A stretch of DNA of 43,452 nt. It comes from Psammoneis japonica (taxonomy: Eukaryota). A model generated the notes under the pieces. The model was given only the letters and a program-made list of their open reading frames with translations. It made no database searches and was not told where the DNA came from. The stretch is taken from assembly GCA_008632985.1 (NCBI GenBank), contig QPGO01000248.1:62001-105452 (forward strand). Direction: 5' to 3'. The translations under genes and the position numbers were made by a program. Shown piece by piece: positions 1 through 35,324 of this stretch. Within the stretch, counting starts at the first letter, position 1, and every line of letters starts with the position of its first letter.

Positions 1-1640
1 CAGTGCCGCAGAGTTGCTGCCGCACAGCAGGTGGGTTCCTTGCTTGCTTCATTTGTTTGTTCCTCGGCACAGATGCCCATCTGTCTTTCCCTCGTAATTG
101 AGCAAGCATGTTTGCGTGTTGCTGTTGCTGTTGTTGTTGTTGTTCATGACATGATGCATTGCTCTTGCTGCCAATCACAAATGGTGCCACCATGGGCCAT
201 GGGCTTTCAAATCATTTGCAGCGATGGCGGCGAGACAGGACAAGAACACTTTTGGAAATTCTACACCACAGCCTTGATGCCATTTACCTTGGGAGTTCCA
301 CCAAGCGAAGCAAAGCTGTTTCTCAACGATGCCTTCGTTGGACTTTTGGAGTCCCTCCGGCCAGTCATTGAGAACATTCCTGGTGCTCTGGACCTTCAAT
401 TGATGCCTCAAGGCTGCAGGGAATGTTTCTGGTCAGCACATGACAATGCCATCAGTGTGAATGAGTGTCTCGACACACACGAACATCGCACTGTGGTCAA
501 ACTCCCTGTGGACCTAAACTGCAATTTCCTGCATGTGACTGGACATGGGTTCAACAATTTCGAAAATGGTGGACAGCTTCGATTCACGAACATTCCTCTT
601 TCCTTCAACGACTTTGGTTCGCCTCCAAATTTGCTTGCAATTCTGGACATCTGTGCATCGCCGCAGGCTGTGGCTGTGTTCAGCGGAAAACATCCTGTGA
701 ATGAACCCTCGAAGTTTAAATGGAAGAAGGCATTCAATGACCCAGCAAGTCCAGTGCCTGTTGTTTGTGACAAGACCAATTCCACTTGGGCATTCCATGC
801 AGGCTATGAAGGCCAGTCTTCTGATGACCATGATCGATCTCATTTTGCACAAATGACTGTGCCCTTTGGCGACTCGGTCGCTTGTTGCCTTCTTGTGGCC
901 ATCAAGTCCTTTGCAGAGGACAACTTTGAAGGCATCTCTCTTGACAATTGATTTGCAGCAAACTGCAGGAAGCTGTGCACAGGCTTTCTGAGCAAGTGGA
1001 CAAACTCGCCGAAACCTTGCTCCACCTTGGGCACTTTACAAACAATGATTGCGGAAGGAAGATTGACGGTGAACATGGCAGCTTTTGATTGTCATCTGTT
1101 TCAGCATCCTGACAGGTGGTTCCTGACTGAAGAGAGGCTGTTGTCTTGGCTGAGAAAGATGGTGCATTGGCAGAAAATCCAATGGCTTTTTTGCTGCAAC
1201 AAGTGAAGACATGGCACGAAGGAAATCCTGACTCCACGCGAGAAAAGGATGGAACACAGGAAGCCTGGAGCATTTTGATCAAGACGTTGGGGCCTTTTGG
1301 TCAAAAGCTGAAGTCGATTGAACTGTCTTTTGTGATGACATGAAGATTTCTGAAGATGAAGATGGCACTCTGTTTGAACTTTGGGCTCTGGCATGCCCAA
1401 TCTTGGATGACACAGTTGAGCAAGTCCAACTGTGGATCAGCACTGGTGGCCCCAGCCCGCAACCCAGTGATGACTCAGACCAGCAAACATGTGTTTTAGC
1501 AAATGCGTGATGAACAAGGTCCACAAAATTGTTTCAAGCCATCTTTCATGCCTCAACCAAGATTTCCCGTTTGCACCTGCCCACCAGTTCACCGCTGTTT
1601 CTAGGCTCTGGATGACATCCACCCGGCATGGCAGGGCAAC
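1..1640 (+). pseudogene. Degenerate ORF of unknown family inside a TpA/CpG-depleted island (probable mobile-element or captured-gene relic; truncated at window start)
   Basis: ORF 31..951 has only 2 Tyr in 306 aa but many Cys/His (e.g. RECFWSAHDNAISVNECLDTHEH). The frame stays protein-like past the TGA at 949-951 (FAANCRKLCTGFLSKW...) and, after a shift, through 1146..1343. No recognisable domain. Confidence 0.55.
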
Positions 1641-1642
1641 CG

Positions 1643-4600
1643 TTTTTTTGGCAGCCAAACCATGGCGGGGAAGTTTTTAACTCAACCACTTTTGGATTAG
1701 AGAACAGCTGAACAGTCACAAGCCTCTTGAACTTTTGCACTGTTTCCATGCCACACAGCCAAAAGGGTTTGTCACACTGTCACAGATCAATTGCAGGAAG
1801 GCTCCTGCCCATTGCTGGAGGACATTCTACCTTTGGCAACAAGATTGTCCGCTTGAAGAAATTCCAGACAGCAAACAAATTAAGTGGCTCAGCATGACAA
1901 GGTGCCACAGTGATGGCAACTTGGTGCAAGTTGTGGCAAACCCACCAGGAGGGTCTGTGTGGTGCAATTTCTGTCCAGCGCCGCAGGCTCAAACTCTTCA
2001 ACCAATTTTTTCCCACTGACTGTGTGAGGCAATCATTGAACAACAAGTCACACAATGAAGCATGAAGAGAAAAGAAGTGCCTGCTTCCCATGCAAGTCAG
2101 CGGCGTTTGTAACTTGCAAAAATTTAGATGCCTCTTGGATCCAAACTGCCCATTCTTTCGGGGAAAGATCTCCACAGTCTGCATCCTCAACTCAAACATG
2201 AAAAAAGAGTGATCATCTGCTTCATTCTGCCAGGAAGAAGAACCAGAAAAACTTCCCAAAAATGCCTCTTTCTGCCATTGGAATCATGAGCTGCAGGCAT
2301 TGGCACAGTGAGCATTGCAGCAACAACTGCAAGGACTGCCCTCAGGTTCACCACCACAGCAAGACTTGGCACCAGTCTCTGGAATGCAAATGACTGACTG
2401 GGGTGCTTGAGAAAGCACGCAGAGTGTCGTTGTTGAGACAGAGCAAAATTCTGCTCTCTCCAGAGTTGTTGGCAATCAAATTGGTGCAAGTTTCAGCACA
2501 ATCTTTGCACTCCAAAGAATGACAGAACAATGAGAGAAAAAGAAAAGAGTGCCAGCTCTGAAATGAAGCATTGGCTGAGGAGGAACATTGCACAGCTGTG
2601 GCAGAGATCAACTCACCCCAATCTTGTAAGTTGTCATGCATGGAGTCAATGAGCTCACTTGCAACAGACTGGTGGAAAGAACACAGTGCAAAAGAAGGTG
2701 CCCCTTGAATGCCCAGCATTGTTTCAGAAGAGACAAAGAGAGGACAAGTGAAGTGAAGAGTGTTTGTTGTTGGTTTGAGCCCCCCGTGTGGCATGCGCAG
2801 GGCTGTGAAATGGCAGCCAAACCATGGCAGAGGAGTTTTTAACTCAACCACTCTTGGATTGGAGAATGACCAAATGGCCAAAGGCCTGTCAAACTTCTGC
2901 ACTGTTTCCATGAGCCAAACAGCCAAAAGGGTCTGTCACACCATCACAGATCAATTGCAGCAAGGCTCCTGCCCACTGCCAGAGGGCACTCTGCCTTCAG
3001 CAACAAGGTTAGATTGTCCACTTGAAGAAATCCCAGAGACAGCAAACAAACCAAGTGGCTCAGCATGACAAGGTGCCACAGTGATGGCAATTTGGTGCAA
3101 GTTGTGGCAAACCCACCAGGAGGGTCTGCGTGGTGCAATTTCTGTCCAGTGCTGCAAGCTCAAACTCTTCAACCAATTTTCTCCTGCCAACTGCAAGAGG
3201 CAGTTGTTGAACAATGAGTCATGCAAGAAAGAGTGAGGAGAAAAGAAGTGCCTGCTTCCCAAGCAAATCAGCGGTGTTTGCAACCTGCAAAAAGTCGGAT
3301 GCCTTTTAGACCCAAACTGCCCACTCTTTTGGGGAAAGATCTCTGCAGCCTGCATCCACAGCTGAAACACGAAATGAGAGTGACCATCTGCTTCATTCTG
3401 CCAGGAAGAAGAACAAGAGAAACTTCTCAAAAATGCCTCTTTCTGCCATTGAAATTACAAGCTGCAGGCATCAGCAGAGCAAGTGTCACAGCAACAACTG
3501 CAAGGGCTGCTGTCAGGTTCGCCACAACAAGACTTGGTGCCAGCCTGTGGAGCGCAGTTGACTGGCTTGGGCGCACAAGAAAGCACGCAGAGTGATGTTG
3601 TTGAGACAGAGCGTGTTGCTGTGGTCCAGATCAACCTGCCCCAATCTTGTGAGTTGTCAAGCACAGAATTGAGGAGCTCACTTGCAACAGACTGGAAAGA
3701 ACACAGCACAAAAAAAGGTGCCCCTTGAATGCTTGATGTGTCATTTTGGAAGAGACAAAGAGAGGAACGCAGCTGAAACACGAAATGAGAGTGACCATCT
3801 GCTTCATTCTGCCAGGAAGAAGAACAAGAGAAACTTCTCAAAAATGCCTCTTTCTGCCATTGGAGTCATGAGCTGCAGGCATTGGCGCAGTGAGCATTGC
3901 AGCAACAACTGCAAGGACTGCCCTCAGGTTCACCACATCAAGACTTGGCGCCAGTCTCTGGAGTGCAAATGACTGACTGGGATGCATGAGAAAGCATGCA
4001 GAGTGATGTTGTTGAAACAGAGCATGAGTCAAGTGGGAATGTTGCATTGCTGTGGTCCACATCAACTTGCCCCAATCTTGTGAGTCGTCAAGCACGGAAT
4101 TGAGGAGCTCACTTGCAACAGACTGGAAAGAACACAGCGCAAAAGAAGGTGCCCCTTGAGGCCCTTGAGTGCTTGATGTTGTTTTGGAAGAGACAAAGAG
4201 AGGAACACAGCTGAAACACGAAATGAGAGTGATCATCTGCTTCATTCTACCAGGAAGAAGAACAAGAGAAACTTCTCAAAAATGCCTCTTTCTGCCATTG
4301 GAATCATGAGCTGCAGGCATCAGCAGAGTGAGTGTCACAGCAACAACTGCAAGGGCTGCTGTCAGGTTTGCCACAGCAAGACTTGGCATGAGCCTGTGGA
4401 GTGCAGTTGGCTGGCTGGGGCACATGAGAAAGAACGCAGAGTGTTGTGGTTGAGACAGAGCAAAAGTTCTGCTCTCTCCAGAGCTGTTGGCGATCAAACT
4501 GGCATGAGCTTTGGCACAATCTTTGCATCCCAAAGAGCCGCAGAATGATGAAAAGAAAGAAAAGAAAGCCAGCTCTGAAATGAAGCGTGAGTCAAGGAAC

Positions 4601-4790
4601 ATTGCATCGCTGTGGTCAAGATCAACTTCTTGCCCCAATCTTGTGAGTTGTCAAAATGGAATTGAGGAGCTCACCCACAACAGACTGGAAAGAACACAGC
4701 ACAAAAGAAAAGGTGCCCCCCCCCCCCTTGGATGCTTGATGTTGTTTTGGAAGAGACGAAGAGAGGACAAGTGAAGTGAGGCCCCCATGC
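1643..4790 (+). repeat. Tandem array of a degenerate coding unit: two long (~1-1.17 kb) copies plus two shorter (~0.44 and ~0.57 kb) partial copies
   Basis: Anchor CATCTGCTTCATTCT recurs at 2214, 3385, 3796 and 4234 (spacing 1171, 411, 438). GGCAGCCAAACCATGG recurs at ~1650 and ~2812. The parallel minus-strand ORFs 1780..2259 and 2951..3430 are near-identical. Confidence 0.92.
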
Positions 4791-5140
4791 GGCGTCTGTT
4801 GTGCTCTCTGCGCATGTGGTGCAGGGCCTGTGGCCATTGCACCTCTTCCACAGAGTGAAAACGACCTGCTGCTCGCATCGCGGATGTCGTTCGCATCGCG
4901 CGATCGCGCGCAGTTGTCAAAATAAGACAGCAGAAAAGCCCACAACACATAGAACACACAAAAAATGTAAAAATGATGGGAACGACGATTGGCCGAGAGA
5001 ACAGTTTCGAATGAAAGAGAACAAACTCAACTTCGCCGAACTTGCCGCCGACGCCGCCGACAAACCTCCCGCGTCCCGCGTCATCACTCTGTTTTTGAAG
5101 CTTTATTTCCTCCCACAAAAAAGGAAAAAAAACCCTATCG

Positions 5141-6226
5141 ATGCACGTCGACGCAGACAATAACAAGTCCTTGTTCATCACTGCTGTTGTGTTCCTATTG
5201 AGTTGCTGTCTTTTCTCTTCTGCTTTCAGCACTTCTGCACCTGATTCTTCAAAGCACTTCACTCTTCGTGAAACGTCAAACATGCCTCCCATTGCCGCTG
5301 CTGCTGCCGCCAAGGAAATGAGCCTACGAGCGATTTCGAAGATTCTTCCTGCTCAACCTCGCCACTGGGTAGGCGATGGCTTTCATGTCTTTCCGGTCTT
5401 TGCAAATAAAGCGTTTACGGAAGAGTTAAGTCCGTTCCTGATGTTTGACTATGCAGCTCCCAAGGATTTCCCCCCAAGCAAACACCCTCGCGGTGTAGGG
5501 CAACATCCTCACAGGGGCTTTGAGACAATCACGATTGCATTTCAGGGCGAGGTAGAGCACAAGGACTCGACTGGAAAATCTGGCGTAATTGGACCGGGCG
5601 ATGTGCAGTGGATGACAGCTGGACGAGGAATCATTCACGAGGAGTTCCACTCAAACAACTTCAGCAAGAACGGTGGGACCTTCGAGATGGCGCAGCTGTG
5701 GGTGAACTTACCAAAAGAGAAGAAAATGACCAAGCCCCGCTATCAACCAATTCTCGACTCTCAAATTCCAGTGGTTTCGCTTGCAACTGACGATGGTGCT
5801 AAAGACCCTGCTTCAGTCCGCGTCATTGCTGGTCAGTTCGAGGGTACAAAGGGTCCCGCAAAGACCTTCTCTCCGGTTGAGCTTTGGGATGTTTCGATTC
5901 CTCAAAAGGATTCTGTTGTGAGCCTCCCCATCCAAGATGGTCACACTTGTATCGTGTTTGTTCGTAGGGGCGGTATTGATGTGATTACAGACAACGGCGA
6001 CTCTACCTCCTCGTCCAAGCCCGTGGGACCCCAAGCGGTGGCACTTATGGACCAGCATGGAGACGCTGTTAGAATCAGATCTACCGAAGCTAACACGTCT
6101 ATTCTTGTGATGGGCGGCGAGCCTCTAGGCGAACCCATTGCAGCTCGCGGTCCTTTTGTAATGAATACATGGGAACAGATCCGTCAGGCGGGGGAAGATT
6201 TTCACAGTGGCAGATTCGGAACTTGA
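5141..6226 (+). CDS. Pirin family protein (bicupin, quercetin 2,3-dioxygenase-like) with possible bipartite plastid-targeting N-terminus
   Basis: Motifs WVGDGF, PFLMFDY, GVGQHPHRGFETIT, GDVQWMTAGRGIIHEE, QLWVNLP and GEPLGEPIAARGPFVMNT. Hydrophobic leader ending SSAFST. An alternative start is at 5282. Confidence 0.95.
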   Translation: MHVDADNNKSLFITAVVFLLSCCLFSSAFSTSAPDSSKHFTLRETSNMPPIAAAAAAKEMSLRAISKILPAQPRHWVGDGFHVFPVFANKAFTEELSPFLMFDYAAPKDFPPSKHPRGVGQHPHRGFETITIAFQGEVEHKDSTGKSGVIGPGDVQWMTAGRGIIHEEFHSNNFSKNGGTFEMAQLWVNLPKEKKMTKPRYQPILDSQIPVVSLATDDGAKDPASVRVIAGQFEGTKGPAKTFSPVELWDVSIPQKDSVVSLPIQDGHTCIVFVRRGGIDVITDNGDSTSSSKPVGPQAVALMDQHGDAVRIRSTEANTSILVMGGEPLGEPIAARGPFVMNTWEQIRQAGEDFHSGRFGT

Positions 6227-6299
6227 GAAAGGACACGCCATTTCAGTGTAGCATATTAGTAGTACATTCTTCACACTATTTGCTTCCATCTATTCTTTG

Positions 6300-7116
6300 T
6301 CAATCTCTCGCCGGTGTACAAATGAGAATGTCATCCCTACTGTTGCAGTCAACTCGTAGATCTGAGTCGAGATAGACAGTATCAAACCATCCGGCTCCTA
6401 CAGGAGGAATGTTGTAGCTTCCCCACTTTCCAACATCCAAATTGGCAGAAAGGAATTTGAATTCGGTTCGTTTGCCACTCATATCCGGTATCGAGAGTTC
6501 CCCCTTTACCGTAAACGCTCCACCTCTTTTGAACTCGATTACATTTTCCAGCGTGCTTCCGTCGATATTTTGCGTAATGTCCTCGCTTATTCCCCAATCT
6601 ATGAAGAAATTGATTTCCTTTTCGGTTGTCCACTCACTTCGGTATGGATACGTTCAGTTGCAAGTCGGAAGGCATTGAAAAAGAAGATGAGCAATTCTTG
6701 CTGAATTTCAACGCGTTTTGAACAGTACAGATAGAATTATGCCTGCAATCTTTCACTTACAGAAGCCAGTTCTTTTGTAATAGATCGCTAGCTGCAGTTG
6801 CGTCGGTAAGTGAAAGTGGCGCAAGTTGTTCAATTATGTTTTCAATTCGTGAGCGTTTGTCACGCTGAGTATTGCTGTCCTTGAGCCGGCATTCATTCAA
6901 GAGGCTTTCCTTAAGTTCAACTAGTTTCGATTCGGATTGCTTGGGCTCGGAGCTTGCTGCTGAGAACAGACCATCAAAGACACCCTTGACTAATGGTGTC
7001 GACAACAATGTCTGTCGCGACTCTGGCAGCAGAAGGCGCGAGAACGCGTTGGACGGAACCACAAACGAAGCCCATACCATGATTTGGAGCACGCTTTTTG
7101 AGTGGAGCCTCGACAT
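6300..7116 (-). CDS. PAP/fibrillin-domain plastid lipid-associated protein, 2 exons (7116-6761, 6636-6300)
   Basis: Signal peptide ending SNAF. IENIIEQL...LLQKNWLL|EWTTEKEINFF spliced via GTAAG...AAG. C-terminal GWFDTVYLDSDLRVDCNSRDDILI is typical of fibrillins. Confidence 0.88.
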
Positions 7117-15277: not shown

Positions 15278-16285
15278 ATGATGAAGCTCTTTACCCGTAC
15301 TGTCTTGGCGTCACGTGTTGCTGGCAATGGCAACACATCATCTGGCTTGGGCTTTGGTTGCATGGGAATCACCGCTTTTTACGGTGATCCCATGCCGGAC
15401 GAAAAAGGCCTATCCTTGCTCAAGCAGGTATACGAGAGTGGGTGCCGTCATTTTGACACGGCAGAAGCGTACAGGACAGGAGACAAGTACAATGAAAGCC
15501 TTTTGGGACAATTCTTCAAGGATATTCCGCGTGACTCCTTTACGGTAGCTACCAAGTACATGCCGGCCATGCATGGAAACAAGAACGACTACCAAACAGT
15601 AAAGGAAGCTCTCACAGCATCGTTGGGGAGATTAGGACTTGATTATGTTGATCTTTACTACTGCCATCGAATTACTGATCTTGACGGTGCCATGGATTTT
15701 GCAAAGTCTGCCAAGAAACTCAAGGAAGAAGGTCTGATCAAGGAAGTGGGTCTTTCTGAAATCGGCCCATCGTGGCTAAAGAAAGTACACACGGAGGCGT
15801 GTCCTATTGATGCCATTCAGCAAGAGTGGAGCTTGCTTACAAGGAACCTCGAGGATGAGTTGGTCCCCATGTGTCGAGAGCTTGGTATTCCAATCGTTGC
15901 GTACTCCCCATTGGCACGAAACATGTTGGCGTCAAAGTTAGAGACCGCGCCGAAAGACTGGCGTGAAAAGTTGCCGCGATACCAGTCTCTGTCTGAAAAT
16001 CAAAAGATATCCGACGTTATGGCGGAGATTGCCGCCAAATACGACTGCACACCAGCTCAACTAGCTTTGGCCTGGCTCTTTAAACGTGCAAGCCAAATGG
16101 GTGTGACGGTCGTCCCCATCCCTGGATCAACCAAGGTTGAGCACGCACTTTCTAACATGAAGGCGACGCAGATTGATATTACGGACGATGCTGACATGAA
16201 GGTGCTTGAAGCGTTGGCGGAGCAGGTGATTGGGGCACGTGGAGATGAGAGCTATATTGAATCCGGTTTCGAAAGCAAACAGTGA
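15278..16285 (+). CDS. Aldo/keto reductase (AKR13 / IN2-2-like)
   Basis: GLGFGCMG, FDTAEAY, VATKY, LGLDYVDLYYCHR (D-Y-K-H tetrad), EWSLLTR, AYSPLAR, TPAQLALAW, PIPGS. Confidence 0.95.
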   Translation: MMKLFTRTVLASRVAGNGNTSSGLGFGCMGITAFYGDPMPDEKGLSLLKQVYESGCRHFDTAEAYRTGDKYNESLLGQFFKDIPRDSFTVATKYMPAMHGNKNDYQTVKEALTASLGRLGLDYVDLYYCHRITDLDGAMDFAKSAKKLKEEGLIKEVGLSEIGPSWLKKVHTEACPIDAIQQEWSLLTRNLEDELVPMCRELGIPIVAYSPLARNMLASKLETAPKDWREKLPRYQSLSENQKISDVMAEIAAKYDCTPAQLALAWLFKRASQMGVTVVPIPGSTKVEHALSNMKATQIDITDDADMKVLEALAEQVIGARGDESYIESGFESKQ

Positions 16286-20293: not shown

Positions 20294-23200
20294 TCAACTT
20301 GTCCCAATTGAAACACCCTCTAGTCGTACGCCATTTCGAGCAGCAACCTTTTCAAACTTTTCAGATTGCCTTTTGTAGCTACTTGCCCATTTCTCGCACT
20401 TCGTCGTCAATTGTTGAATGTACTCGCGAAGGCGAGCACATTTTCGCTCGAGCGCCTCGTTTTTGGCCTGTAGCCCCGTGCATTGCTTCTCCGTCTCCCT
20501 TCTTAATGTCTGCTCTTGCTCCATACTAAATCTTAAAAGCAATAGGAAACAGGCTGGCGTTAGAAATGCATGTAGACTTTGAGAGGCAGCCTCGGAAACG
20601 AACACAAAAACTCACATCTTCCGCTTATAGTCGTCAATCTCTGCGACAGCGTCTTCGAGCCTGGCAGCTGCAGAGTCTCGAGCTTCCGTCACCTCTCGTA
20701 CGAGTAGGGCATCACGTTCTCTTGCTTCCCTGTGAGTATTTTGCAAAAGGGTGAGTTCCGCCTCTTTGTCCTCCAGGGCTCGTGAGGTCGCCCCTATCTC
20801 CTGTGCAGTACGAGCTATTTCTGTCTCCGCCATATCCAGCTTTCTTTTCGCATCGATCAATTCTTCTTCTAAAGCATCAAGATGAAGCTTCTGTTGAGCA
20901 ACAAGGGACTCGCGGGTTGAGTTGAGCTCGGACACCTTCGCAAGTTGGTCGTTGCACGAGACATAAGCTATCTTGAGCGTCTCGAGCTCTGAACTCGATT
21001 GTGAAGCAGAGTGCAGTACTTGCTCAACTTGTGATTCGTACTGAGTGCATTTTTCCATTAATTCATTGATCTTCGACTGTTGCTGGGATGCATGTTCCTT
21101 GATATGAACGTTCTCCCTGCTTGTTGCCTCGAACTCACCACACCGAAGTCTCAGATCCGCAATCGTTGTTTCAGCTTGGTTGTACTTTGCCATCAGTTCA
21201 TTGTATTGGGCCTCCAGCGAAGAGAGATGTCTCTCCTTTTTGCTGATCAGCTCGCACGCTTCGTTGAGATCTTGTTCGAGCTTTTCAGCGGTAGCTTGGT
21301 GCTTTCGAGCGTCCTTTCGAGATGCCGAGAGAAGCGAATTTGCATTAGACGCTTCTTGCTCTGAATTCTTGGATGCGTTCTGTGCAGTTTCGACTTCAGC
21401 TTTCAACAGAGCAACCAAAGCTTCGTTAGCACCGAATCGTTTCGAGACTTTCTCGAGCTCAATCTTGCATGCTGAATGCATCTCTACGACCCTTTTCAGC
21501 TCTGCTTCCCTTAGCTCACCAGACCTTTTCATGTCTTCCAGTTGTTTGGTAAGTTCTTTGCATTTTAGAACGGACCTCTGGAGTTCGCATCGAGTTGCAT
21601 CGAGGACGCGAGTTGCTTCGTCGCGTTCCGTTTCAAGCATTTCGCCATACTTTCGTTCGACATCCTCCAGGTGGCTGCTCTTCTGCTTGAGAGCATCAAT
21701 AGCTTTATCGAGCTCATGCTGAAGAGTAGAAATCTGGGAATTAAAGCTCAATGCTTCTGCCCGCAACTGCTTGGCTTCGTCAGTAGATTCTTGTAACTTC
21801 TTTTCCACGGCAGGAAGAGCTGTCTGATACTGGGCAACCAAGGCTTCGTTTCGATCATTGTGCTCGGAAACATTTGCGAGCTTGTCATTGCAACTTAGAT
21901 AAGAGACCTTTAGCTTCTCGATTTCATCGGTTTGTCCTGCCAGTGCATCTTCCAACCTTGAAATATGGGATCTCTTGCTCACGATGACGTCCTGCGCATC
22001 ATTTAGTTGGGTTTTTAATTGCTCGATTCCTCTCAAAAGCTGTTCCTTCTCGCTGCTAAGCGCTTCTGCTGTTGCCGTCGCTTCTGCAACTTCTTTCGAC
22101 GTCTTACTGAAGGTCAATTCGGCAGCCTCTAGAGCTCGTTGGTATTGTGCAACGACGCTGTCATCGCCCTCACTACTCTGGGTTGCAATATCGAGACCTT
22201 CGTTGAAACTGGACTTCAGAATATCCATCTCGTGCTCGGCGTCATGCAACGACTTCTTGAGGCGATCCACTTCAGAAAGGCACACCTGCTCAGAGTCTGA
22301 CAACCTCTGGACCTCGTTTGCAAGTTTCTCGCATTGCTTCGCAATCTGATGTTTCTCCTCTTGTTTCAGTAGAAGATCGTTCTCCAACTCAGAAACCTTC
22401 TTTGACAGTTCGACTGCATCCATATCGACACGACCAGATTCGTTTTCTTCCTGGGAACGAGCAACCTGCGGATGAGATGTTCCACAATCCCGTTTTGCTT
22501 TGAGCAATCCGTACTCCAGGTCTTGCTTTTCGTGCGAAAGCTTTCTGACCTTGGCCTCCAGAATCTCGGTTAAACGGTGAAGCTTGTCATTGGTCTCCTT
22601 CAAGAAAGCACGTTCTTTTGATTTTGCCTGGTGAATAGCAAGGAAGTCCTTAACTTTCTGTAGTTCCGTTTGAGCCGACTCTAGCCTTTCGTGTAGGCGC
22701 TTCTTCTCAGCTCCCCACCGTTTTCGGTCAGAGAGCAAGGCTTCCATATCACTCTCGCTCAAAGACTTTTTCTCGGCTGAAGATGATTCCATAAAGATAC
22801 TTTCAATCACGCTTATGTCCTCACCGAGCTGCGACAGCGCATCAATGTGGGAGAGACCGGAGAGTTTTTCTTCTTCAGAGACGTATCCGCTGGTGTCTAT
22901 GGTTCGCGCCTCCTCCATCATTTCAAGCCGTTTCTCTTCCACACTAAAAGATTCTTCAAAAGCGTCGCAACGATGAAGCGTAGCGTTGAGCACCTCGTCC
23001 AAAAGACTTTCGGAGTCCTCGGGACCTTGATCGATCCCATCGACAATAACCTGCGATGATGCGGAGCATGAATAAGAAAAGGAGTTCTCCCCATCTTCCT
23101 CGATTGCTGACTCTTGCTTCACCTCAATGCAATCGCGGAGATGATTCACAGCCGTCGCCATGCTGATGAGTCTAGCCTCGTAATCGGAAATCTTTCCTTC

Positions 23201-25059
23201 CAGATTTGCACGTAGGATACCAGAGTCGTATTCTACCTTGGCAATAGCCGCCTTTGCCGCTTTGCGCACGGACACCAATTGAGATTCTAGAAGGTCTCTT
23301 TCGGCGACAATTGATCGTAATTCACTGCTTTCCAACATACGAGAGATTGTGTCCTCGTCGAACTCTGTGCGACCGGAGGTTTGAGATTCTGATAGTTCTG
23401 TTTCATCTTTCTGCTTTTCACTAAACTCCTTCAGTTGCGACTCGAGCTGTTGACTGTACGAGGCGACCTTCTCTTCCAGCGCATACCGTGCACTACTTGC
23501 CTCTTTCAGCTCACACATCAAGTCTTGAACTTTATCCTGACTCTTGGAAAGTTCATCTCGAAGCGCCTTGTTTTCGCTATCGGAATGATAAGTCGTAGCA
23601 TCCTTTGCAACCTGCTCCTTCAACGTCAAGTACTGTGTCTCCCATTTCGCCGCCTGTCGATTGGCTGCAACGACTTCTTGATGTAGAGATTTGTTCTCGT
23701 CTTTGGCGCAATTCAATTCGCTCCGAACCTGTTCCAGCTGCTCTTGGAGACAGGCATTCTGTTCGTCAAGCTTCACACAAGTCTGATCCGTATACCTAAC
23801 TTCTGTCTCCAGAATCCTGTTTCGCTCCAGCAATTGCGAGTCACATTGCGGAGGACCAACTTGCGATGAAATGGCAAAGACGTTCTTGTTGACGGAGTCT
23901 TCCGATTTGACCATCTCTTCCATTTGCCTTTCGCATTCCTTTCGTTTCTCGATTTCTTCCTCAACTAGCTCCAAGGCAACCCGGTGAGCTTCCTCCAATT
24001 CTTGGATTCGCTTCATATAAATTGCACTCTCGGCGAGAGCTTGCTGTCTCGCATCGGCTCTCAATCTTGTCAAAGGAGACAACTCGGTGGCCGGATCAAG
24101 GTCATCTGGGTTTAATCGAGGAGGAGATTCTTGAATGGATTCTTCCAGAACGGCCAATGACAACTTTGTCTCGTCTTGGCCTGATACACTCTCAATCATC
24201 GATTGCTGCATCAAAGAAGTGTCGGGTGCTATCTCGTCCAGGTGTTGGAACCGTTCGTAGCACTCTTGAGGGGTGTCAAGAATAGTAGGCGGGATTTTTC
24301 TGACGGGGAGCGGCGTAAATCCGTTTTCTTCATCACTTGGAAACACATCTACGGTGGAGTTGCTTGTAAGAGAATGATCAAGAAGGACGCTATGGTGATG
24401 CGACTGGAAGATGACCTCAGGTACACCCGGTGTAGTATCTTGGGGGTCCTCCATACCGGCACTGTCTTGGGATCCTCGCTTGGGAGCATCCAGAGAAGAC
24501 GAAACACTGGCTTGGTGCGTTGGTTCTCTAGTTCTTTCAATGGTGTCTTGCGAAAATCATCCGTCGAGCTTCTCGGTGATGCGCCGGAAAGTGAAAGAAG
24601 TTCACCAGGAAAATTCTGAACTTGAGCTGTGCCATGAGACGTCTCGGCGATACTCTCGCTGTGCAAAGTACCCGGCATGGAAAGAAGCTCACCAGGGAGA
24701 GTATGGACTCTTCCGATCCTATTGTCACTCGAAGAAGTTGCGGGCAAGGAGTCGCTCGCAGAGCAGTCAAGCAAAGAGACATGCTCGGTATGATCTGGTG
24801 AATGGCTTACAGTCCTTGGGATCTTGGCTGGTGAGTCCACTTCAACGTCAGCGTAGTGATACGATGTCGACATGGAGGGAGATTCCTTCATGACAGGCGA
24901 CTGTTCGTCTTGCCTCAATGAAATCGCAACAGGAACATCGTCAATAGGATGAGCTGAAATTCTGGGTGCCGTCTTTTTATGAAGTCTCTTCGAATCCGTC
25001 GTGCGGTTTGCGTTTTGCACATCCAACAACGGGACACGCTTAGCATAGCGCTCCTTCAT
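20294..25059 (-). CDS. Large (~1550 aa) coiled-coil protein with disordered N-terminus; intron ~20615-20526; -1 frameshift at ~24555
   Basis: Heptad-rich 1280-aa ORF 20612..24454. Upstream ORF 24349..25068 joins it if one T is added to the TTTT run (GAT TTT TCG CAA...). The last exon MEQEQTLRRE...KWASSYKRQS follows GTGAG...TAG. Confidence 0.85.
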
Positions 25060-31019: not shown

Positions 31020-32520
31020 GCACAACATGCTCATGCACCCTCTAGAGTCAAACTCATCATCCATCAATGATCATCCCTCAATCGCCAACCGAAAGTCGTT
31101 ACACACGCAGCCATGATCGCTCACAGGGATCACAACATTGCTCACATCAACTGTCGCCCCGGTTCCTTTGCCTCTTCCAGCTGCACTGAGTCTGGTGCGA
31201 GCAGAAAAACACAAGTCGCCCAAGACAACATCTACTGCCTTGTTGATCTTGCTCACATCTGCTCTTCAAAGGAGCCTCCAATGGTGAAAGCCAAATGTTG
31301 TTTCATTGTAAATCAAAATGAGCCCCAGTGAAAACAAAGTTCTTGCCCAAGACCTTGAACATTGCAGTCAGGGGGTGTGATCGTGGCTTGAGCCAAGTTG
31401 GTCAAGCTCTGCGATGCACAAGCACAAGTGCCAGTGCTGACATGAGCCATGAAGCTGTTGTTTGGAAAATCAAAGGCCAGATCATCTGAGCAAATGCAAG
31501 TCACAAAGAATGGCCCTGTTCACTGATGATGAAAATCAAGGCTTGACTGCCTCTCACCTCTTCTGAGCACAGCCCCGTTGCACAAGGTGGTGTTTCTGTG
31601 AAAACTCCAGAATGCCAATGAGACCCCCAGCATGGTGCTCTGGCTGACAACATGGAATCCACCCACAGCTTGTGTGTCATGATGGCAAGATGTTGTCAAT
31701 GCTCTTTCTGGTGGTTTTGTTGCCTCCTCTTTTTCATCTTGTTCCAGCAGCGATTCTCCCACACATGGGGGCTTCCAAAAGAAGAGCAGAGCTGACCTGG
31801 CTCTGTCAAGCACCAGTCGTTTACTCTTTTTCCGAGACATGAGCAAACAGCTTTGAAACTGGCTCCAACAGCAAAATGATTCTTTTTGTTGAGTGGCAAA
31901 TCTGTTGCCATGCACTCAAAAAGCCCAAAGGAAAGCAGGGAGCATTTTCGCAGTCAGCCCAGAGGAGAGATCGGCAACCTGCAGACAAGCTGTGGCAAAA
32001 ACAGTGCCAGCCAAGATGAGAGGCACAGCCTTTCATTGCTTGCTTTCTTCACATCACTTGAAACATCAAAGGTGCATTTGCCCCAACTGGTGAGGATGCA
32101 CAAAACAACCCCAAAACATTTGTTGCGCGAGACACAGCAATGTTTTGGCTGCCCACTTCTCGGATTGCTTGGCACAGGTGTGATTTGCACAGGGAGTTTA
32201 GCAGCAGCAGCAACAACAAGTCAGCACTTGCATGCTGCCTGCTGTCATTGCATCCCTCAACTCATCTCAAAGACAGTCCACAACTTTCTGCCAGGCAAGC
32301 GCAGCTCTTGAAAAAGTTTCTTGTGTCTCTCAAGATTTCTTGCAGCGCAAAGATGTCAGCAACATGCATCCAGCTTGGCATGGAACATTGTCAGAAAAAG
32401 TCAACTAAACACCAAGCAGTCTCCAGAGGTGAAACATCGAAATTGAGGACACTGTGGGGGGATTCCACAGACCCACTCAACGATGCTATCATGTCATTTG
32501 CAGACCTCGGAGCTCGTGCG
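31020..32520 (-). pseudogene. TpA-depleted degenerate insertion (gene or mobile-element relic of unknown family)
   Basis: Only about 7 TpA seen in 31081-32490. Fragmentary Cys/His/Trp-rich, Tyr-free ORFs. The minus strand gives protein-like pieces broken by TGA (e.g. SLDFHHQ*TGPFFVTCICSDDLAFDFPNNSF). The strand is tentative. Confidence 0.55.
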
Positions 32521-32645
32521 CCGTTGCTTGGTTCGTGATGACGTCAGTGTTGATGACGGCGATACGATCGCGATCAAACATTGGCCGATGGACGATGAAC
32601 GATGAGCGATGAGCGCGCCTACAACGGCCGCCATTGGTTTTGGCC

Positions 32646-33755: not shown

Positions 33756-33919
33756 CCTTTACTGATTCAATACAAAAACTACAATATCAGACAGTTGATA
33801 TCAAGAAGAGCGACTTCTGTGGCCTCACACACCGACTCCGAGTTGCTCATAGTAGGAGAGAGCAGAAGTTTGCAAGAGAACACAAAGAAGGAAAATTTTG
33901 ATTTTCGAAAAAATTCAAA

Positions 33920-34215
33920 AAATTCGAAAAATTTCCCTCCACTAATCCTTAATTCTTTATTCATGAGTCGATACAAATATAACAGCTTTCGCGCCATTTT
34001 CATCTCAAGTGTTCAGTGTGCTTTCTTGCTTTTGTGAGTCGACATTAACTGCTTTTCATGATTCTGAATTCATGATGAATGACAAGGATGAAGAGCGCAA
34101 CAGTGTCGTCTCCCCTTGGCGGGAAGGCTGCTACAGGACTGTCTCCCACAGAATCTGTACCGCAAGATGCACTCTCTGGTGATCAATGCGCAGTTGATGC
34201 ACCCGGACGGAATGG
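33920..34215 (+). repeat. Diverged direct duplicate of the promoter and first ~50 codons of the gene at 35325 (partner ~35070-35475)
   Basis: CCCTCCACTAATC, AACAGCTTTCGCGCCATTTTC, CATGATG.ATGACAAGGATGAAGAG and CTGTACCGCAAGATGC occur in the same order at both loci. The copy has internal deletions. Confidence 0.9.
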
Positions 34216-34217
34216 TT

Positions 34218-34810
34218 TCAAAAGGAAAATTCTAACTGTTTGGTTGATGGATTTTTGACGATCACCCTGTCTGCAAATTGTAATGTTTTTCTTTTCATTT
34301 CTTCAAAATCTTGACACTCGATGCAATGTGGAAGCTCCTGCATGGCCCTCCTTTGCTCTCGGCAAATCTCGATGACTCGTTCGTCATCCCCTCTTTCTCG
34401 CATGTTTCGTTCATGCAAATCTTCTGTTGGGACCAGATGTACGTTTTTTCTTTGTGTTTTGACCCATCATTGCCTTCCAGCAAAATGGCAGACTGTTCCT
34501 TGCTCTGACAGAGAACAATTTTGGGCTGTTGGAGTTGATTCTTCAAAACCAATTTGCGATGTTTGGTGGCCTCATACAATGCACATTCATGTTCCAATCG
34601 CTTCCGGTTGATTTTGCCGTCATCATCACTGTCGTCAGTCACAGCCAATTTCCAATCACGCATCATCTTGGATTCTGGTGCCGCCTTGGGATCCCAAACA
34701 TCATCAATGTCAAAGAAGATGTCGCTGTGCTGTCTGCAAAACGTCGTTTTGCCAGACCCACCCGGCATGCAAACAATTCCAGGAATAAGAGGATGTGCTT
34801 TGGATGTCAT
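34218..34810 (-). CDS. Small P-loop NTPase/kinase-like protein (~197 aa if a -1 frameshift at ~34445 is corrected); possibly pseudogenised
   Basis: IVCMPGGSGKTTF (Walker A) followed by FFDIDDVW. Adding one A to the A6 run joins ...HKEKNVHLVPTEDLHERNMRERG...LEFSF*. Confidence 0.7.
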
Positions 34811-35324
34811 CTTTGGCGGGAGAAAGCTTGCGGGTGCTGTATCGTTTTGGTCAATAAAAGTGAATCGCGATGACTTGAGTTACAACTTTGTGATGACTGG
34901 GTTGTTCGGTTGCATTACACATGCACAACTTCATCCCAGTTTATCGTCGCATTAGCTGATAACACGCAAAAGCTACACAGGGCGATGATCGGCAACGAAA
35001 CATAATGCAATTCTGAGGCCATTCTTCATCCTCCCCTCGAGGTGCACTTCGTAGCGATGAATCAGATGTAAAAAATTCGAGAAAATCAAAACTCCCTCCA
35101 CTAATCGCTTCATTATTTTATTCATGCGTTTATAAATACAAATTTTAACAGCTTTCGCGCCATTTTCTTTGGGTAAGCACCCCGCGCCGCCGCCGCGCCG
35201 CCTCGCCTGACGCCCGAACCCGTTTTCAGTTTTCGCTTTGCTGAGAGTTTTTTCTTGCGGCCGGGTGGAGAAGTCATACAGAAGAGATCTTGAGCGTGTT
35301 GACATTGCTGTTAGTTCATGATTC

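What the first reader, a model, noticed from the sequence alone, without database searches (positions are those of the whole stretch)
1..4850. Repeat-targeted TpA->TpG/CpA hypermutation ('reverse-RIP') superimposed on CpG decay
Seen: 2941-3420 (480 nt) has 2 TpA and 4 CpG by hand count, against 15 TpA and 10 CpG in only 240 nt of an ordinary gene (15421-15660). Tandem copies differ at TpA sites: TTCTAC (4248) vs TTCTGC (2228, 3399, 3810); TGTAAG (2627) vs TGTGAG in the other three copies; CTACC (1828) vs CTGCC (2992); ATTAG (1698) vs ATTGG (2860); GTAAC (2110) vs GCAAC (3281). Tyr codons appear converted to Cys/His. Established: 5mCpG deamination explains CG->TG/CA, and fungal RIP creates TpA rather than destroying it, so neither explains TpA loss. 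Inference: a silencing-linked A->G process (adenine modification or deamination, or biased repair) acts on TpA in repetitive or foreign DNA. I do not know of a characterised mechanism for this in diatoms.
Basis: partly seen in the sequence, partly recalled or inferred. Interest (0 to 1): 0.9.

Follow-up and report, generated by a model that had tools for sequence, protein, structure and literature searches.

The report
TpA-erasing hypermutation patches in a diatom
Three short stretches of this diatom DNA have had nearly every TA (and many CG) dinucleotide turned into TG or CA, the fossil trace of a targeted DNA-mutating process that so far has been measured directly only in one unrelated alga.

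Summary
Window 1-4850 has 21 TpA (O/E 0.07) and 80 CpG (0.28), against 0.54 and 0.95 in the rest. Two more patches show the same pattern: ~31100-32560 and ~34160-34880.

Short-read-like contigs at ~70x agree with the assembly, so it is not a base-calling artefact.

The loss is directional. A decayed gene at 199-1486 has Cys or His at 6 of 8 positions where its homologues have Tyr. Of 53 changed consensus columns, 23 fit TA/CG->TG/CA and 1 fits the reverse. The patch-3 gene gives 12 forward, 0 reverse against its nearest homologue.

YpR dinucleotides per kb stay constant (229-238 versus 234), so TA and CG were converted into TG/CA.

Repeat copies differ mainly by TG<->CA swaps, so conversion continued after duplication.

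This signature is no longer without precedent. A 2026 preprint measured TpA->TpG/CpA hypermutation of integrated viral DNA in Bigelowiella natans. The window is a diatom case, much nearer saturation and combined with CpG decay.

The enzyme is unknown. Targeting of repeats specifically is not shown.

The parts
1..4850 (.). Patch 1: a domain with almost no TpA and few CpG. It runs off the left end of the window. The right edge is sharp: the first dense CpG run is at 4862-4909 and the next TpA at 4923.
   Evidence: TA 21 (O/E 0.07), CG 80 (0.28), TG 1.77, CA 1.58; YpR sum 228.7 per kb against 234.1 in the rest.
199..1486 (+). Decayed copy of an orphan gene family (homologues P0001-P0007, full length about 430 aa, no Pfam family).
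   Evidence: tblastn places it in frame 1 at 199-1143, frame 3 at 1137-1328 and frame 2 at 1334-1486. 23 forward versus 1 reverse TA/CG->TG/CA changes.
949..951 (+). In-frame TGA where 4 of 6 homologues have Arg (fits CGA->TGA).
   Evidence: The X1 contig shows no difference here.
1134..1143 (+). Frameshift (frame 1 to frame 3) within the decayed gene. The second apparent shift at about 1331 is an assembly indel.
   Evidence: One search gives the frames. One search shows that X1 contigs put an extra G behind 1331, which restores that frame, and show no change at 1134-1143.
1640..4783 (.). Local repeats at 78-91% identity. 4-copy segments: 2180-2450, 3349-3617, 3762-4030, 4198-4466 and 2575-2760, 3611-3770, 4029-4208, 4602-4783. 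2-copy segments: 1640-2190 with 2802-3360 and 2440-2590 with 4456-4615.
   Evidence: Copies differ chiefly by CA<->TG double differences (14 of 24 adjacent double differences in the 550-column pair; column shuffles give a mean of 1.05 and a maximum of 7).
31100..32560 (.). Patch 2: a second TpA/CpG-poor domain, between the SLC4-type transporter gene and the next gene. No recognisable coding content.
   Evidence: TA 4.8, CG 19.2, TG 96.5, CA 117.0 per kb; YpR sum 237.5. No Pfam hit for 5 of 5 ORFs.
34160..34880 (.). Patch 3: a TpA-poor domain with only mild CpG loss.
   Evidence: TA 9.7, CG 40.2, TG 102.6, CA 81.8 per kb; YpR sum 234.4.
34218..34879 (-). Small P-loop kinase-fold gene of an orphan family (P0008-P0018). 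Its reading frame changes between about 34436 and 34478; this could be a real frameshift or an assembly indel and was not checked against reads.
   Evidence: Against P0008, 12 of 63 differing residues fit forward changes and 0 fit reverse changes.

Best explanation
The three patches are fossil targets of a regionally confined, strand-symmetric transition hypermutation. It turns TpA into TpG or CpA (T:A->C:G at TpA). It is the same signature that a mutation-accumulation experiment measured in integrated viral DNA of Bigelowiella natans.

Here it is superimposed on ordinary CpG->TpG/CpA decay of methylated DNA. Both palindromic YpR dinucleotides therefore collapse into TG/CA, while G+C content and the total number of YpR steps stay unchanged.

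Shown here:
- the direction of change;
- the dinucleotide specificity;
- strand symmetry;
- confinement to patches with sharp edges next to normal genes;
- continued activity after local duplications;
- TpA loss outrunning CpG loss in every patch.

Inferred, not shown:
- The agent. My odds are about 35% for an ADAT2/TadA-type deaminase acting on adenine of 5'-TA-3' in DNA (inosine then pairs with C). They are about 20% for enzymatic modification or oxidation of the thymine of TpA (5hmU/5fU type) that mispairs with G. The remainder is for something else.
- The cue that marks these stretches, whether foreign origin, silent chromatin or 5mC.
- That the CpG loss reflects 5mC in the same domains.
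For: (1) Size of the effect. TA O/E is 0.07 in the 7032 nt of the patches, 0.66 in non-ORF DNA of the rest and 0.50 in long ORFs. CG O/E is 0.34, 1.09 and 0.92.

(2) Budget. YpR per kb is 228.7, 237.5 and 234.4 in the patches and 234.1 in the rest. In patch 1, TA falls by 34.8 and CG by 38.6 per kb, while TG rises by 36.7 and CA by 31.3. CpG loss alone cannot pay for the TG+CA gain.

(3) Polarity at locus 1. Of 259 columns with a homologue consensus, 53 are changed. 23 of them fit one step TA/CG->TG/CA (7 TA>CA, 7 TA>TG, 8 CG>CA, 1 CG>TG) and 1 fits the reverse. Shuffling the consensus residues gives a mean of 4.9 and a maximum of 12 in 2000 shuffles. Tyr is kept in 2 of 8 columns, other residues in 204 of 251 (Fisher p 0.0011). 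All 4 Val->Ala changes are GCA codons. Cys is kept 6/6 and His 3/3.

(4) Polarity at locus 2 (patch 3). Against P0008 there are 12 forward (9 from TA) and 0 reverse among 63 differences; 0 of 2000 shuffles reach 12. Against P0009 there are 13 forward and 3 reverse among 99.

(5) Activity after duplication. CA<->TG double differences number 14 in 550 columns and 6 in 150 columns. Column shuffles give means of 1.05 and 0.69 and maxima of 7 and 5.

(6) Not an artefact. X1 contigs at depth 61-75 agree with the assembly.

(7) Precedent. In B. natans, 230 of 231 single-nucleotide mutations in two viral inserts were A>G or T>C, and all of these fell on TpA. The rate was about 6e-7 per site per generation. 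The genome holds 124 clusters of TpA-poor, CpA+TpG-rich 1-kb windows, mostly with unannotated genes (preprint 10.64898/2026.01.13.699255; abstract, Results and Discussion read). Windows 1-5000 pass that paper's cut-offs (Rho TpA <=0.43, CpA+TpG >=1.52) in 5 consecutive 1-kb windows.

(8) The organism is a diatom. Every named hit among the 120 listed for the SLC4-type transporter is a diatom; the best identity is 73%.
Against: - No DNA of intact homologues could be fetched, so the ancestral codons are inferred from proteins only.
- With the consensus of the more divergent family 2, the signal is weak: 4 forward and 2 reverse among 25 changed columns of 85. The pairwise tests are not polarised by an outgroup.
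- Four of the 53 changed columns at locus 1 lie in the overlap of two reading frames (1138-1143). One of these is among the 23 forward changes.
- The in-window repeats never show TA in a majority of copies, and never show TA together with both TG and CA. They cannot say what share of the CA<->TG columns came from TA rather than CG.
- There is no whole genome. Neither the genome-wide extent, nor the copy number of the targets, nor a deaminase or dioxygenase gene could be examined.
- A foreign origin of the targets is only a lead.
- The B. natans paper reports no CpG effect, so the coupling with CpG decay seen here has no precedent there.
Confidence: 0.75

Rival explanations
1. Inherited composition. 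The stretches arrived as foreign DNA (from a virus or another donor) that was already TpA- and CpG-poor, or were hypermutated before integration. Nothing of this kind happened in the diatom chromosome.
For: The patch edges are sharp. Both recognisable genes belong to rare orphan families. Family 2 has its nearest feature-space clusters among viral (Uroviricota) hypothetical proteins at scores of 0.95-0.96. It also shares a GKTTF..FDIDDxW motif with an AAA_33 protein on tailed-phage contigs.
Against: The tandem and dispersed copies within 1640-4783 resolved the same ancestral dinucleotides independently into TG or CA. Conversion therefore went on after local duplication. Three unrelated patches share the state. 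The homologues keep normal Tyr content, 1.6-4.5% against 0.5% here.
Confidence: 0.1
2. General neutral mutation bias. In this species all unconstrained DNA drifts to a TpA/CpG-poor state, and the patches are simply the oldest junk in the window.
For: Patch 1 contains a dead gene and decayed repeats. Patch 2 has no recognisable coding content.
Against: The 14187 nt of the rest of the window that lie outside long ORFs have TA O/E 0.66 and CG O/E 1.09, higher than in the ORFs. The edges of the patches are sharp, within about 100 nt.
Confidence: 0.05
3. RNA-level hyperediting (ADAR-like A-to-I on double-stranded RNA) captured in DNA by reverse transcription and integration.
For: ADARs favour a U before the edited A, as quoted in the preprint's Discussion. 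Editing of both strands of a duplex would look strand-symmetric.
Against: An A before the edited A is also tolerated by ADARs (recalled knowledge, not from a call), yet ApA is enriched here (O/E 1.23). Conversion is close to complete and strictly at TpA. It acted on copies duplicated in place. ADARs are metazoan proteins (recalled).
Confidence: 0.05
4. Sequencing or assembly artefact caused by modified bases.
For: The assembly does contain small errors: one indel and one base differ from the X1 contigs in 7 kb.
Against: 16 of 16 X1 contig pieces are 99% or more alike to the window at word depth 61-75, and none restores a TA. The amino-acid pattern against homologues is that of real substitutions, with an in-frame stop and a frameshift.
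Confidence: 0.02
5. Selection against TpA in these stretches, for example to avoid TA-target transposon insertion, a TA-cutting nuclease or nucleosome exclusion.
For: TA is a nucleosome-excluding dinucleotide in a diatom (passage of PMC4504042).
Against: The sequence under such 'selection' is a dead gene. Tyr residues invariant in its homologues are replaced, and it carries a stop and a frameshift. Selection would not favour TG/CA specifically while keeping the YpR sum constant.
Confidence: 0.03

Closest known systems
TpA-specific hypermutation of integrated viral DNA in Bigelowiella natans (Mettrop et al., bioRxiv 10.64898/2026.01.13.699255, 2026; abstract, Results and Discussion read; supplements closed)
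   Same: The change is TpA->TpG/CpA on both strands. It is confined to particular regions beside normal DNA. The long-term trace is clusters that are TpA-poor and CpA+TpG-rich, holding mostly unannotated or decayed genes. The targets need not be repeated.
   Different: That case is in a chlorarachniophyte (Rhizaria), this one in a diatom. Rates were measured there; here only the fossil signature is seen. The effect here is far deeper: TpA O/E is 0.05-0.15, against Rho 0.45 for their NCLDV insert and a cut-off of 0.43. Here it is coupled with CpG loss, which that paper does not mention. A viral origin of the targets is shown there and is only a lead here.
Repeat-induced point mutation (RIP) of fungi
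   Same: It is a regional, very dense transition hypermutation that kills duplicated or invading DNA. Diatoms carry DNMT4 enzymes that group with the RIP factor RID and have no known function (passages of PMC9998398).
   Different: RIP makes C->T, mostly at CpA, and so creates TpA. Here TpA is destroyed and CpA/TpG are created. Dependence on duplication is not shown here.
CpG decay of 5mC-methylated transposons (known for diatom TEs methylated by DNMT5; PMC9998398 abstract and passages)
   Same: CG->TG/CA with low CpG O/E (0.13-0.47 in patch 1). Repeat copies show CG in one copy against TG or CA in the others (5 three-state columns).
   Different: It explains only about half of the TG+CA gain and none of the TpA loss. 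Patch 3 loses about 75% of its TpA but only about 27% of its CpG.
Polynucleotide deaminases: ADAT2/3-TadA, ADAR, AID/APOBEC
   Same: Editing of A (read as G) with a T/U before it. The preprint's Discussion cites reports that ADAT2 of amphioxus and Trypanosoma acts on DNA (cited there, originals not read).
   Different: No such gene could be looked for, because no genome is held. No natural enzyme is known to erase TpA from chromosomal DNA.
5-hydroxymethyluracil on transposons of dinoflagellates (PMC11572971, passages)
   Same: A TET/JBP enzyme modifies T. Older work quoted there found preferential replacement of T in TA and TC. The mark sits on repeats together with 5mC and silences them.
   Different: It is an epigenetic mark with no reported mutational trace. 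Its presence in diatoms is unknown. That it would cause T->C is my inference.

Membership tests
TpA-targeted hypermutation of B. natans type | Changes are almost only A>G / T>C | tested here: met
   For the TpA part, 14 of 14 TA-derived changes at locus 1 are TA>TG or TA>CA, and 9 of 9 at patch 3 against P0008. The test only recognised these classes. Transitions make up 58 of 72 singleton differences in the 4-copy repeats (its context labels are confounded by double differences).
TpA-targeted hypermutation of B. natans type | Changes fall on TpA and give TpG or CpA according to strand | tested here: met
   TA O/E is 0.07 with TG 1.72 and CA 1.60, and the YpR sum is unchanged. ApA and TpT are not depleted (1.23 and 1.31). 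TG versus CA is 506 versus 502.
TpA-targeted hypermutation of B. natans type | [quoted passage not shown] | tested here: met
   Five consecutive windows in 1-5000 have TA 0.05-0.11, TG 1.64-1.91 and CA 1.38-1.72. Patches 2 and 3 are shorter than 3 kb and would not count as clusters.
TpA-targeted hypermutation of B. natans type | Local mutation rate about 1000 times the genome's, active in only some lines | not testable with these tools
   This needs mutation-accumulation lines or population resequencing of this diatom.
TpA-targeted hypermutation of B. natans type | Targets are of viral or other foreign origin | tested here: inconclusive
   Family 1: no Pfam family, no PDB match, no IMG/VR locus. 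Family 2: a P-loop kinase fold. Its nearest Atlas clusters are viral hypothetical proteins at 0.95-0.96. Its BFVD matches (TMq 0.57-0.62) are dsRNA-virus polyprotein segments and a mavirus protein. On two tailed-phage contigs only a 24-residue motif match was found.
Fungal RIP | C->T at CpA, so TpA rises and CpA/TpG fall | tested here: not met
   The opposite is seen: TpA O/E 0.07, CpA 1.58, TpG 1.77.
Fungal RIP | Acts only on duplicated sequence | tested here: inconclusive
   1640-4783 is locally repeated, but 199-1486, patch 2 and the patch-3 gene have no second copy in the window. No genome was available to search.
5mC-driven CpG decay | CpG depleted, TG/CA enriched, with copies holding CG against TG or CA at the same site | tested here: met
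   CpG O/E is 0.28. 9 CG-derived changes at locus 1. 5 three-state CA/CG/TG columns.
5mC-driven CpG decay | The DNA is methylated at CpG | not testable with these tools
ADAR-type hyperediting | Neighbour preference is loose (U or A before the edited A) and conversion is partial | tested here: not met
   ApA is enriched (1.23) while TpA is about 90% gone. The preference itself is taken from the preprint's Discussion and from recall.

The most novel reading that the evidence does not exclude
A TpA-specific DNA-editing defence is shared across distant SAR algae (Rhizaria and diatoms). In diatoms it runs to saturation on stretches that are also CpG-methylated. One domain-level 'foreign or silent' mark would then recruit two mutagenic chemistries that collapse both palindromic YpR steps into TG/CA. 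TpA-free islands would be a readable fossil record of past invasions. The responsible enzyme, a natural DNA adenine deaminase or a thymine modifier, could be found in genetically tractable diatoms.
Probability: 0.4. Interest if true: 0.85.

Novelty: new member of a known kind. Interest (0 to 1): 0.68.

Why it matters
Targeted hypermutation as a genome defence was known from fungi (RIP, C->T) and from animal APOBEC and ADAR. A T:A->C:G process limited to TpA has been reported once, in a 2026 preprint on a chlorarachniophyte, with the enzyme unknown.

Finding its saturated trace in a diatom has several consequences:
- The process is probably old or recurrent among SAR algae.
- It can act faster than methyl-CpG decay.
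- It can erase reading frames of orphan, possibly foreign, genes.

It also gives a simple compositional marker for mapping such targets in the many diatom genomes: TpA O/E below about 0.15 with TG/CA excess and a constant YpR sum. The search for the enzyme could then move into organisms with knock-out tools. A natural enzyme that edits A in double-stranded chromosomal DNA would also interest base-editing work.

Tried and rejected
- Whole genome: none is held. I could therefore run no genome-wide Rho scan, no copy counts and no search for ADAT, TET/JBP or DNMT4 genes.
With A2 it found no relative in metagenome contigs (525 pattern matches, 0 confirmed) or in viral contigs (83 matches, 0 confirmed).
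The first Atlas call failed.
- RNA: no RNA holder was listed. X2, which shows an intron-like joint and may be RNA, has no contig on 1-5150. This is no evidence on expression.
- Pfam on 17 ORFs of the patches gave nothing above noise. Pfam on families 1 and 2 gave nothing. PDB sequence search gave nothing for family 1 and E 0.055 (guanylate kinase) for family 2.
- The family-1 structure model was too poor to search (pLDDT 54.8).
- The duplicated segments flanking patch 3 (33908-34216 and 35070-35474) looked like a natural experiment, but both copies keep their TAs and say nothing.
- The singleton spectrum in the 4-copy repeats is confounded. Each CA<->TG double difference is counted once as 'TA>CA' and once as 'CG>CA', so I do not use its context labels.
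- A two-copy retention model for the share of CA<->TG columns that came from TA gave about 7 from CG and about 4 from TA, against 14 observed. This is a hand calculation on the counts, and the numbers are too small to decide.
- The IMG/VR loci L001 and L002 are tailed-phage contigs (terminase, portal). Only a 24-residue P-loop motif matches family 2. This is not evidence of common descent.
- Earlier notes of this scan: none found.
- Literature: eight accepted searches before the decisive one found no report of TpA loss in diatoms. One search found the B. natans preprint, and one search found no second paper.

Full report
**1.

2941-3420 has 2 TpA and 4 CpG, and 15421-15660 has 15 and 10.

Over 1-4850 there are 21 TpA (O/E 0.07), 80 CpG (0.28), 506 TpG (1.77) and 502 CpA (1.58). 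The remaining 38.6 kb has O/E 0.54, 0.95, 1.12 and 1.18.

One thousand mononucleotide shuffles of 1-4850 give 320 TpA on average and never fewer than 281. The 136 windows of the same size taken from the rest of the window hold 112-230.

The listed motif pairs are at the stated places.

**2. The feature is larger than reported**

A 300-nt scan and the list of TA positions show three patches.
- Patch 1 runs from the window's first base to about 4850. A burst of CpG follows at 4862-4909 and the next TpA is at 4923.
- Patch 2 lies at about 31100-32560.
- Patch 3 lies at about 34160-34880.

Patches 2 and 3 share no sequence with patch 1 (blastn of the window on itself).

The rest of the window is ordinary, gene-dense diatom DNA. 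It encodes a pirin, an aldo/keto reductase, an SLC4-type transporter and an S28 peptidase. Every named hit among the 120 listed for the transporter is a diatom, and the best identity is 73%.

**3. It is not an artefact**

Contigs of run X1, at word depth 61-75, cover 1-7000 in 16 pieces, all 99% or more alike to the window. They differ only by G>A at 232 and by an extra G behind 1331.

Contigs of that depth and length (up to 315 kb) come from accurate reads. The library type is not on record, however, and X1 may be the assembly's own sample.

**4. The loss is directional**

*Locus 1.* The open frame at the left end has seven homologues (41-73% identity, no Pfam family). tblastn shows that the gene spans 199-1486 in three frames, with an in-frame TGA at 949-951.
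- The frame change at about 1331 disappears with the extra G seen in the reads, so it is an assembly indel.
- The stop and the shift at about 1134-1143 are in the reads as well.
- It is therefore a dead gene.

I used the homologues' consensus as the ancestral state (3 or more sequences, 60% or more agreeing). That gives 259 columns, of which 53 are changed.
- 23 of the 53 can be reached by one step TA->TG/CA or CG->TG/CA: 7 TA>CA, 7 TA>TG, 8 CG>CA and 1 CG>TG.
- Only 1 can be reached by the reverse kind of step.
- Shuffling the consensus residues among the changed columns gives 4.9 forward on average and at most 12 in 2000 trials.
- A slightly different set of alignments gave 263 columns, 51 changed, 23 forward and 1 reverse.
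- Four of the 53 columns lie in the overlap of two frames at 1138-1143. One of these is among the 23.

The residue pattern agrees.
- Consensus Tyr is kept in 2 of 8 columns and replaced by Cys (4) or His (2).
- Other residues are kept in 204 of 251 columns (Fisher p 0.0011).
- All four Val->Ala changes are GCA codons, and the one Leu->Pro is CCA.
- Arg goes to His, Gln (twice) and stop.
- Cys (6/6), His (3/3), Asn (7/7) and Phe (23/24) stay.
- The dead gene has 0.5% Tyr, 3.3% Cys and 3.0% His. Its homologues have 1.6-4.5%, 1.1-2.4% and 1.4-2.8%.

*Locus 2.* Patch 3 holds a small gene on the minus strand (34218-34879) with twelve relatives found by an exhaustive search.
- Against its nearest relative P0008 (100 identical, 63 different residues), 12 differences fit forward steps (9 from TA, 3 from CG) and none fits a reverse step. 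No shuffle of 2000 reaches 12.
- Against P0009 the figures are 13 forward and 3 reverse among 99 differences.
- These pairwise tests have no outgroup.
- With the consensus of this much more divergent family the signal is weak: 85 columns, 25 changed, 4 forward, 2 reverse.

**5. The dinucleotide budget closes**

YpR steps per kb number 228.7, 237.5 and 234.4 in the three patches and 234.1 in the rest.
- In patch 1, TA falls by 34.8 and CG by 38.6 per kb. TG rises by 36.7 and CA by 31.3.
- In patch 3, TA falls by 29.4 and CG by only 14.9. TG+CA rise by 44.6.

Three things follow.
- CpG decay alone cannot supply the TG/CA gain.
- TpA loss can proceed with little CpG loss.
- TpA loss is the more complete of the two in every patch: about 89% against 70% in patch 1, and about 75% against 27% in patch 3, taking the rest of the window as baseline.

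G+C content is unchanged (0.45-0.49), because the two conversions offset each other.

The change is strand-symmetric: TG versus CA is 506:502, 141:171 and 74:59.

**6. It is regional, not a general bias**

Outside long ORFs, the rest of the window (14187 nt) has TA O/E 0.66 and CG 1.09. Long ORFs have 0.50 and 0.92, and the patches 0.07 and 0.34.

**7. It went on after local duplications**

1640-4783 consists of two- and four-copy segments at 78-91% identity. Their commonest difference is a double one: TG in one copy and CA in another at the same place.
- There are 14 such columns in the 550-column pair, out of 24 adjacent double differences and 85 differing sites in all.
- There are 6 in the 150-column pair.
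- Column shuffles give 1.05 and 0.69 on average, with maxima of 7 and 5.

Such columns need an ancestral CG or TA that each copy resolved on its own.

Which of the two it was cannot be read from the repeats.
- Five four-copy columns still show CG beside both TG and CA. None shows TA beside both.
- TA never occurs in more than one copy.

The polarity rests on sections 4 and 5.

**8. Flanking bases**

Among the 27 TpA left in patches 1 and 2, none follows an A, 4 follow G, 9 follow C and 14 follow T.
- Relative to the rest of the window, survival by the preceding base is 0, 0.05, 0.15 and 0.30.
- By the following base it is 0.04 (T), 0.11 (C), 0.12 (G) and 0.18 (A).

ATA/TAT is thus erased completely, and TTA/TAA survives or is regenerated most. 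The numbers are small.

**9. What the targets are**

*Family 1* has no Pfam, PDB or IMG/VR relative, and its model is poor (pLDDT 54.8). The Atlas gives only sub-threshold leads to caspase-fold peptidases (0.81).

*Family 2* folds well (pLDDT 86.3) as a P-loop kinase.
- PDB matches reach TM 0.44-0.50.
- Matches to predicted viral proteins are closer, at TMq 0.57-0.62. They include chryso- and endorna-like polyprotein segments and a mavirus protein.
- Its nearest Atlas clusters are viral hypothetical proteins (0.95-0.96).
- A 24-residue motif is shared with an AAA_33 protein of two tailed-phage contigs.

A foreign origin is a lead and no more.

The contigs laid on the patch have the same depth as the single-copy flank, and no second copy of 199-1486, patch 2 or the patch-3 gene lies in the window. 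'Repeat-targeted' is therefore not shown.

**10. Comparison with what is known**

Eight literature searches found nothing on TpA loss in diatoms. The ninth found a preprint of April 2026: Mettrop et al., 10.64898/2026.01.13.699255. I read its abstract, Results and Discussion; its supplements were closed.

In mutation-accumulation lines of Bigelowiella natans:
- two integrated viral regions mutate at about 6e-7 per site per generation, a thousand times the background;
- 230 of 231 changes are A>G or T>C, and all of these fall on TpA;
- the genome holds 124 clusters of TpA-poor, CpA+TpG-rich windows, mostly with unannotated genes;
- the authors propose an ADAT2-like DNA adenine deaminase.

The paper mentions neither diatoms nor CpG. 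A tenth search found no second paper.

Windows 1-5000 here pass that paper's cluster definition.

The window is thus a new member of a kind described once. It is in a different supergroup lineage, much closer to saturation, and combined with CpG decay. That decay fits the known CpG methylation of diatom transposons (PMC9998398, abstract and passages).

Fungal RIP works in the opposite direction, and its membership test fails.

**11. How it most likely works**

*Shown:* a process confined to certain stretches converts T:A to C:G only where T is followed by A. It acts on either strand. It is faster than methyl-CpG decay and was still active after the local repeats arose.

*Inferred:* the agent and the targeting cue.
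- I put about 35% on deamination of the adenine of TpA in DNA by an ADAT2/TadA-type enzyme. That is the preprint's proposal. The strict T-before-A rule matches the U33-A34 context of the tRNA substrates (recalled knowledge).
- I put about 20% on modification or oxidation of the thymine of TpA. In dinoflagellates a TET/JBP enzyme makes 5hmU on repeats together with 5mC, and older work found it preferentially in TA and TC (PMC11572971, passages). That such a base would mispair with G and be fixed as C is my inference.
- The rest goes to something not yet thought of.

None of this could be tested without the genome.

**12. Verdict**

The core of the interpretation, directional TA->TG/CA on top of CpG decay, is supported by two loci and by the dinucleotide budget.

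Three parts of it remain open: that the process targets repeats, that it is linked to silencing, and which chemistry it uses.

Noticed in passing
window 232 and 1331: The X1 contigs differ from the assembly by G>A at 232 (a CpG read as CpA) and by an extra G behind 1331. The latter removes an apparent frameshift of the decayed gene, so the assembly carries small indel errors.
   Followed up: partly
window 6636-6761: A contig of run X2 skips 124 bases with ends CT..AC, which is GT..AG on the minus strand. This looks like an intron of a minus-strand gene downstream of the pirin gene, and suggests that X2 is an RNA run.
   Followed up: no
window 33908-34216 and 35070-35474: Two direct segments at 79-83% identity flank patch 3. 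The downstream one overlaps the start of an ORF at 35322-35633. Both keep their TpA. This may be a duplication made when the patch-3 DNA was inserted.
   Followed up: partly
window 4862-4909 and 32508-32630: Very CpG-dense short stretches sit directly at the right edges of patch 1 (12 CpG in 48 nt) and patch 2 (repeated GATGA(C/G)CG-like words). They lie just upstream of the next genes. They may be unmethylated promoter islands that bound the affected domains.
   Followed up: no
window 199-1486 and proteins P0001-P0007: Family 1 keeps an SGHGFN motif and an LDxCASPQA motif. These resemble the His and Cys motifs of caspase-fold peptidases; the resemblance is recalled, not tested. The Atlas gives only sub-threshold leads to Peptidase_C13/C14 (0.81).
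   Followed up: partly
alignment A4, column of window residue His in 'KHRK' (about 34561): Within family 2 this one column reads Tyr in three homologues, Cys in four and His in the window. Some database homologues may come from copies that underwent the same TA->TG/CA conversion in other diatoms.
   Followed up: no
L001 3590-4336 and L002 7734-8480: Two tailed-phage contigs (terminase, portal, a C5 DNA methylase) encode an AAA_33 P-loop protein. It shares the GKTTF...FDIDDIW motif of the diatom family 2.
   Followed up: partly
window 20612-24454 (minus strand): A 1280-aa ORF without a clear Pfam family has moderately low TpA (O/E 0.38-0.43 over 21-25 kb) with normal CpG. This is probably codon usage, but it was not examined.
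   Followed up: no
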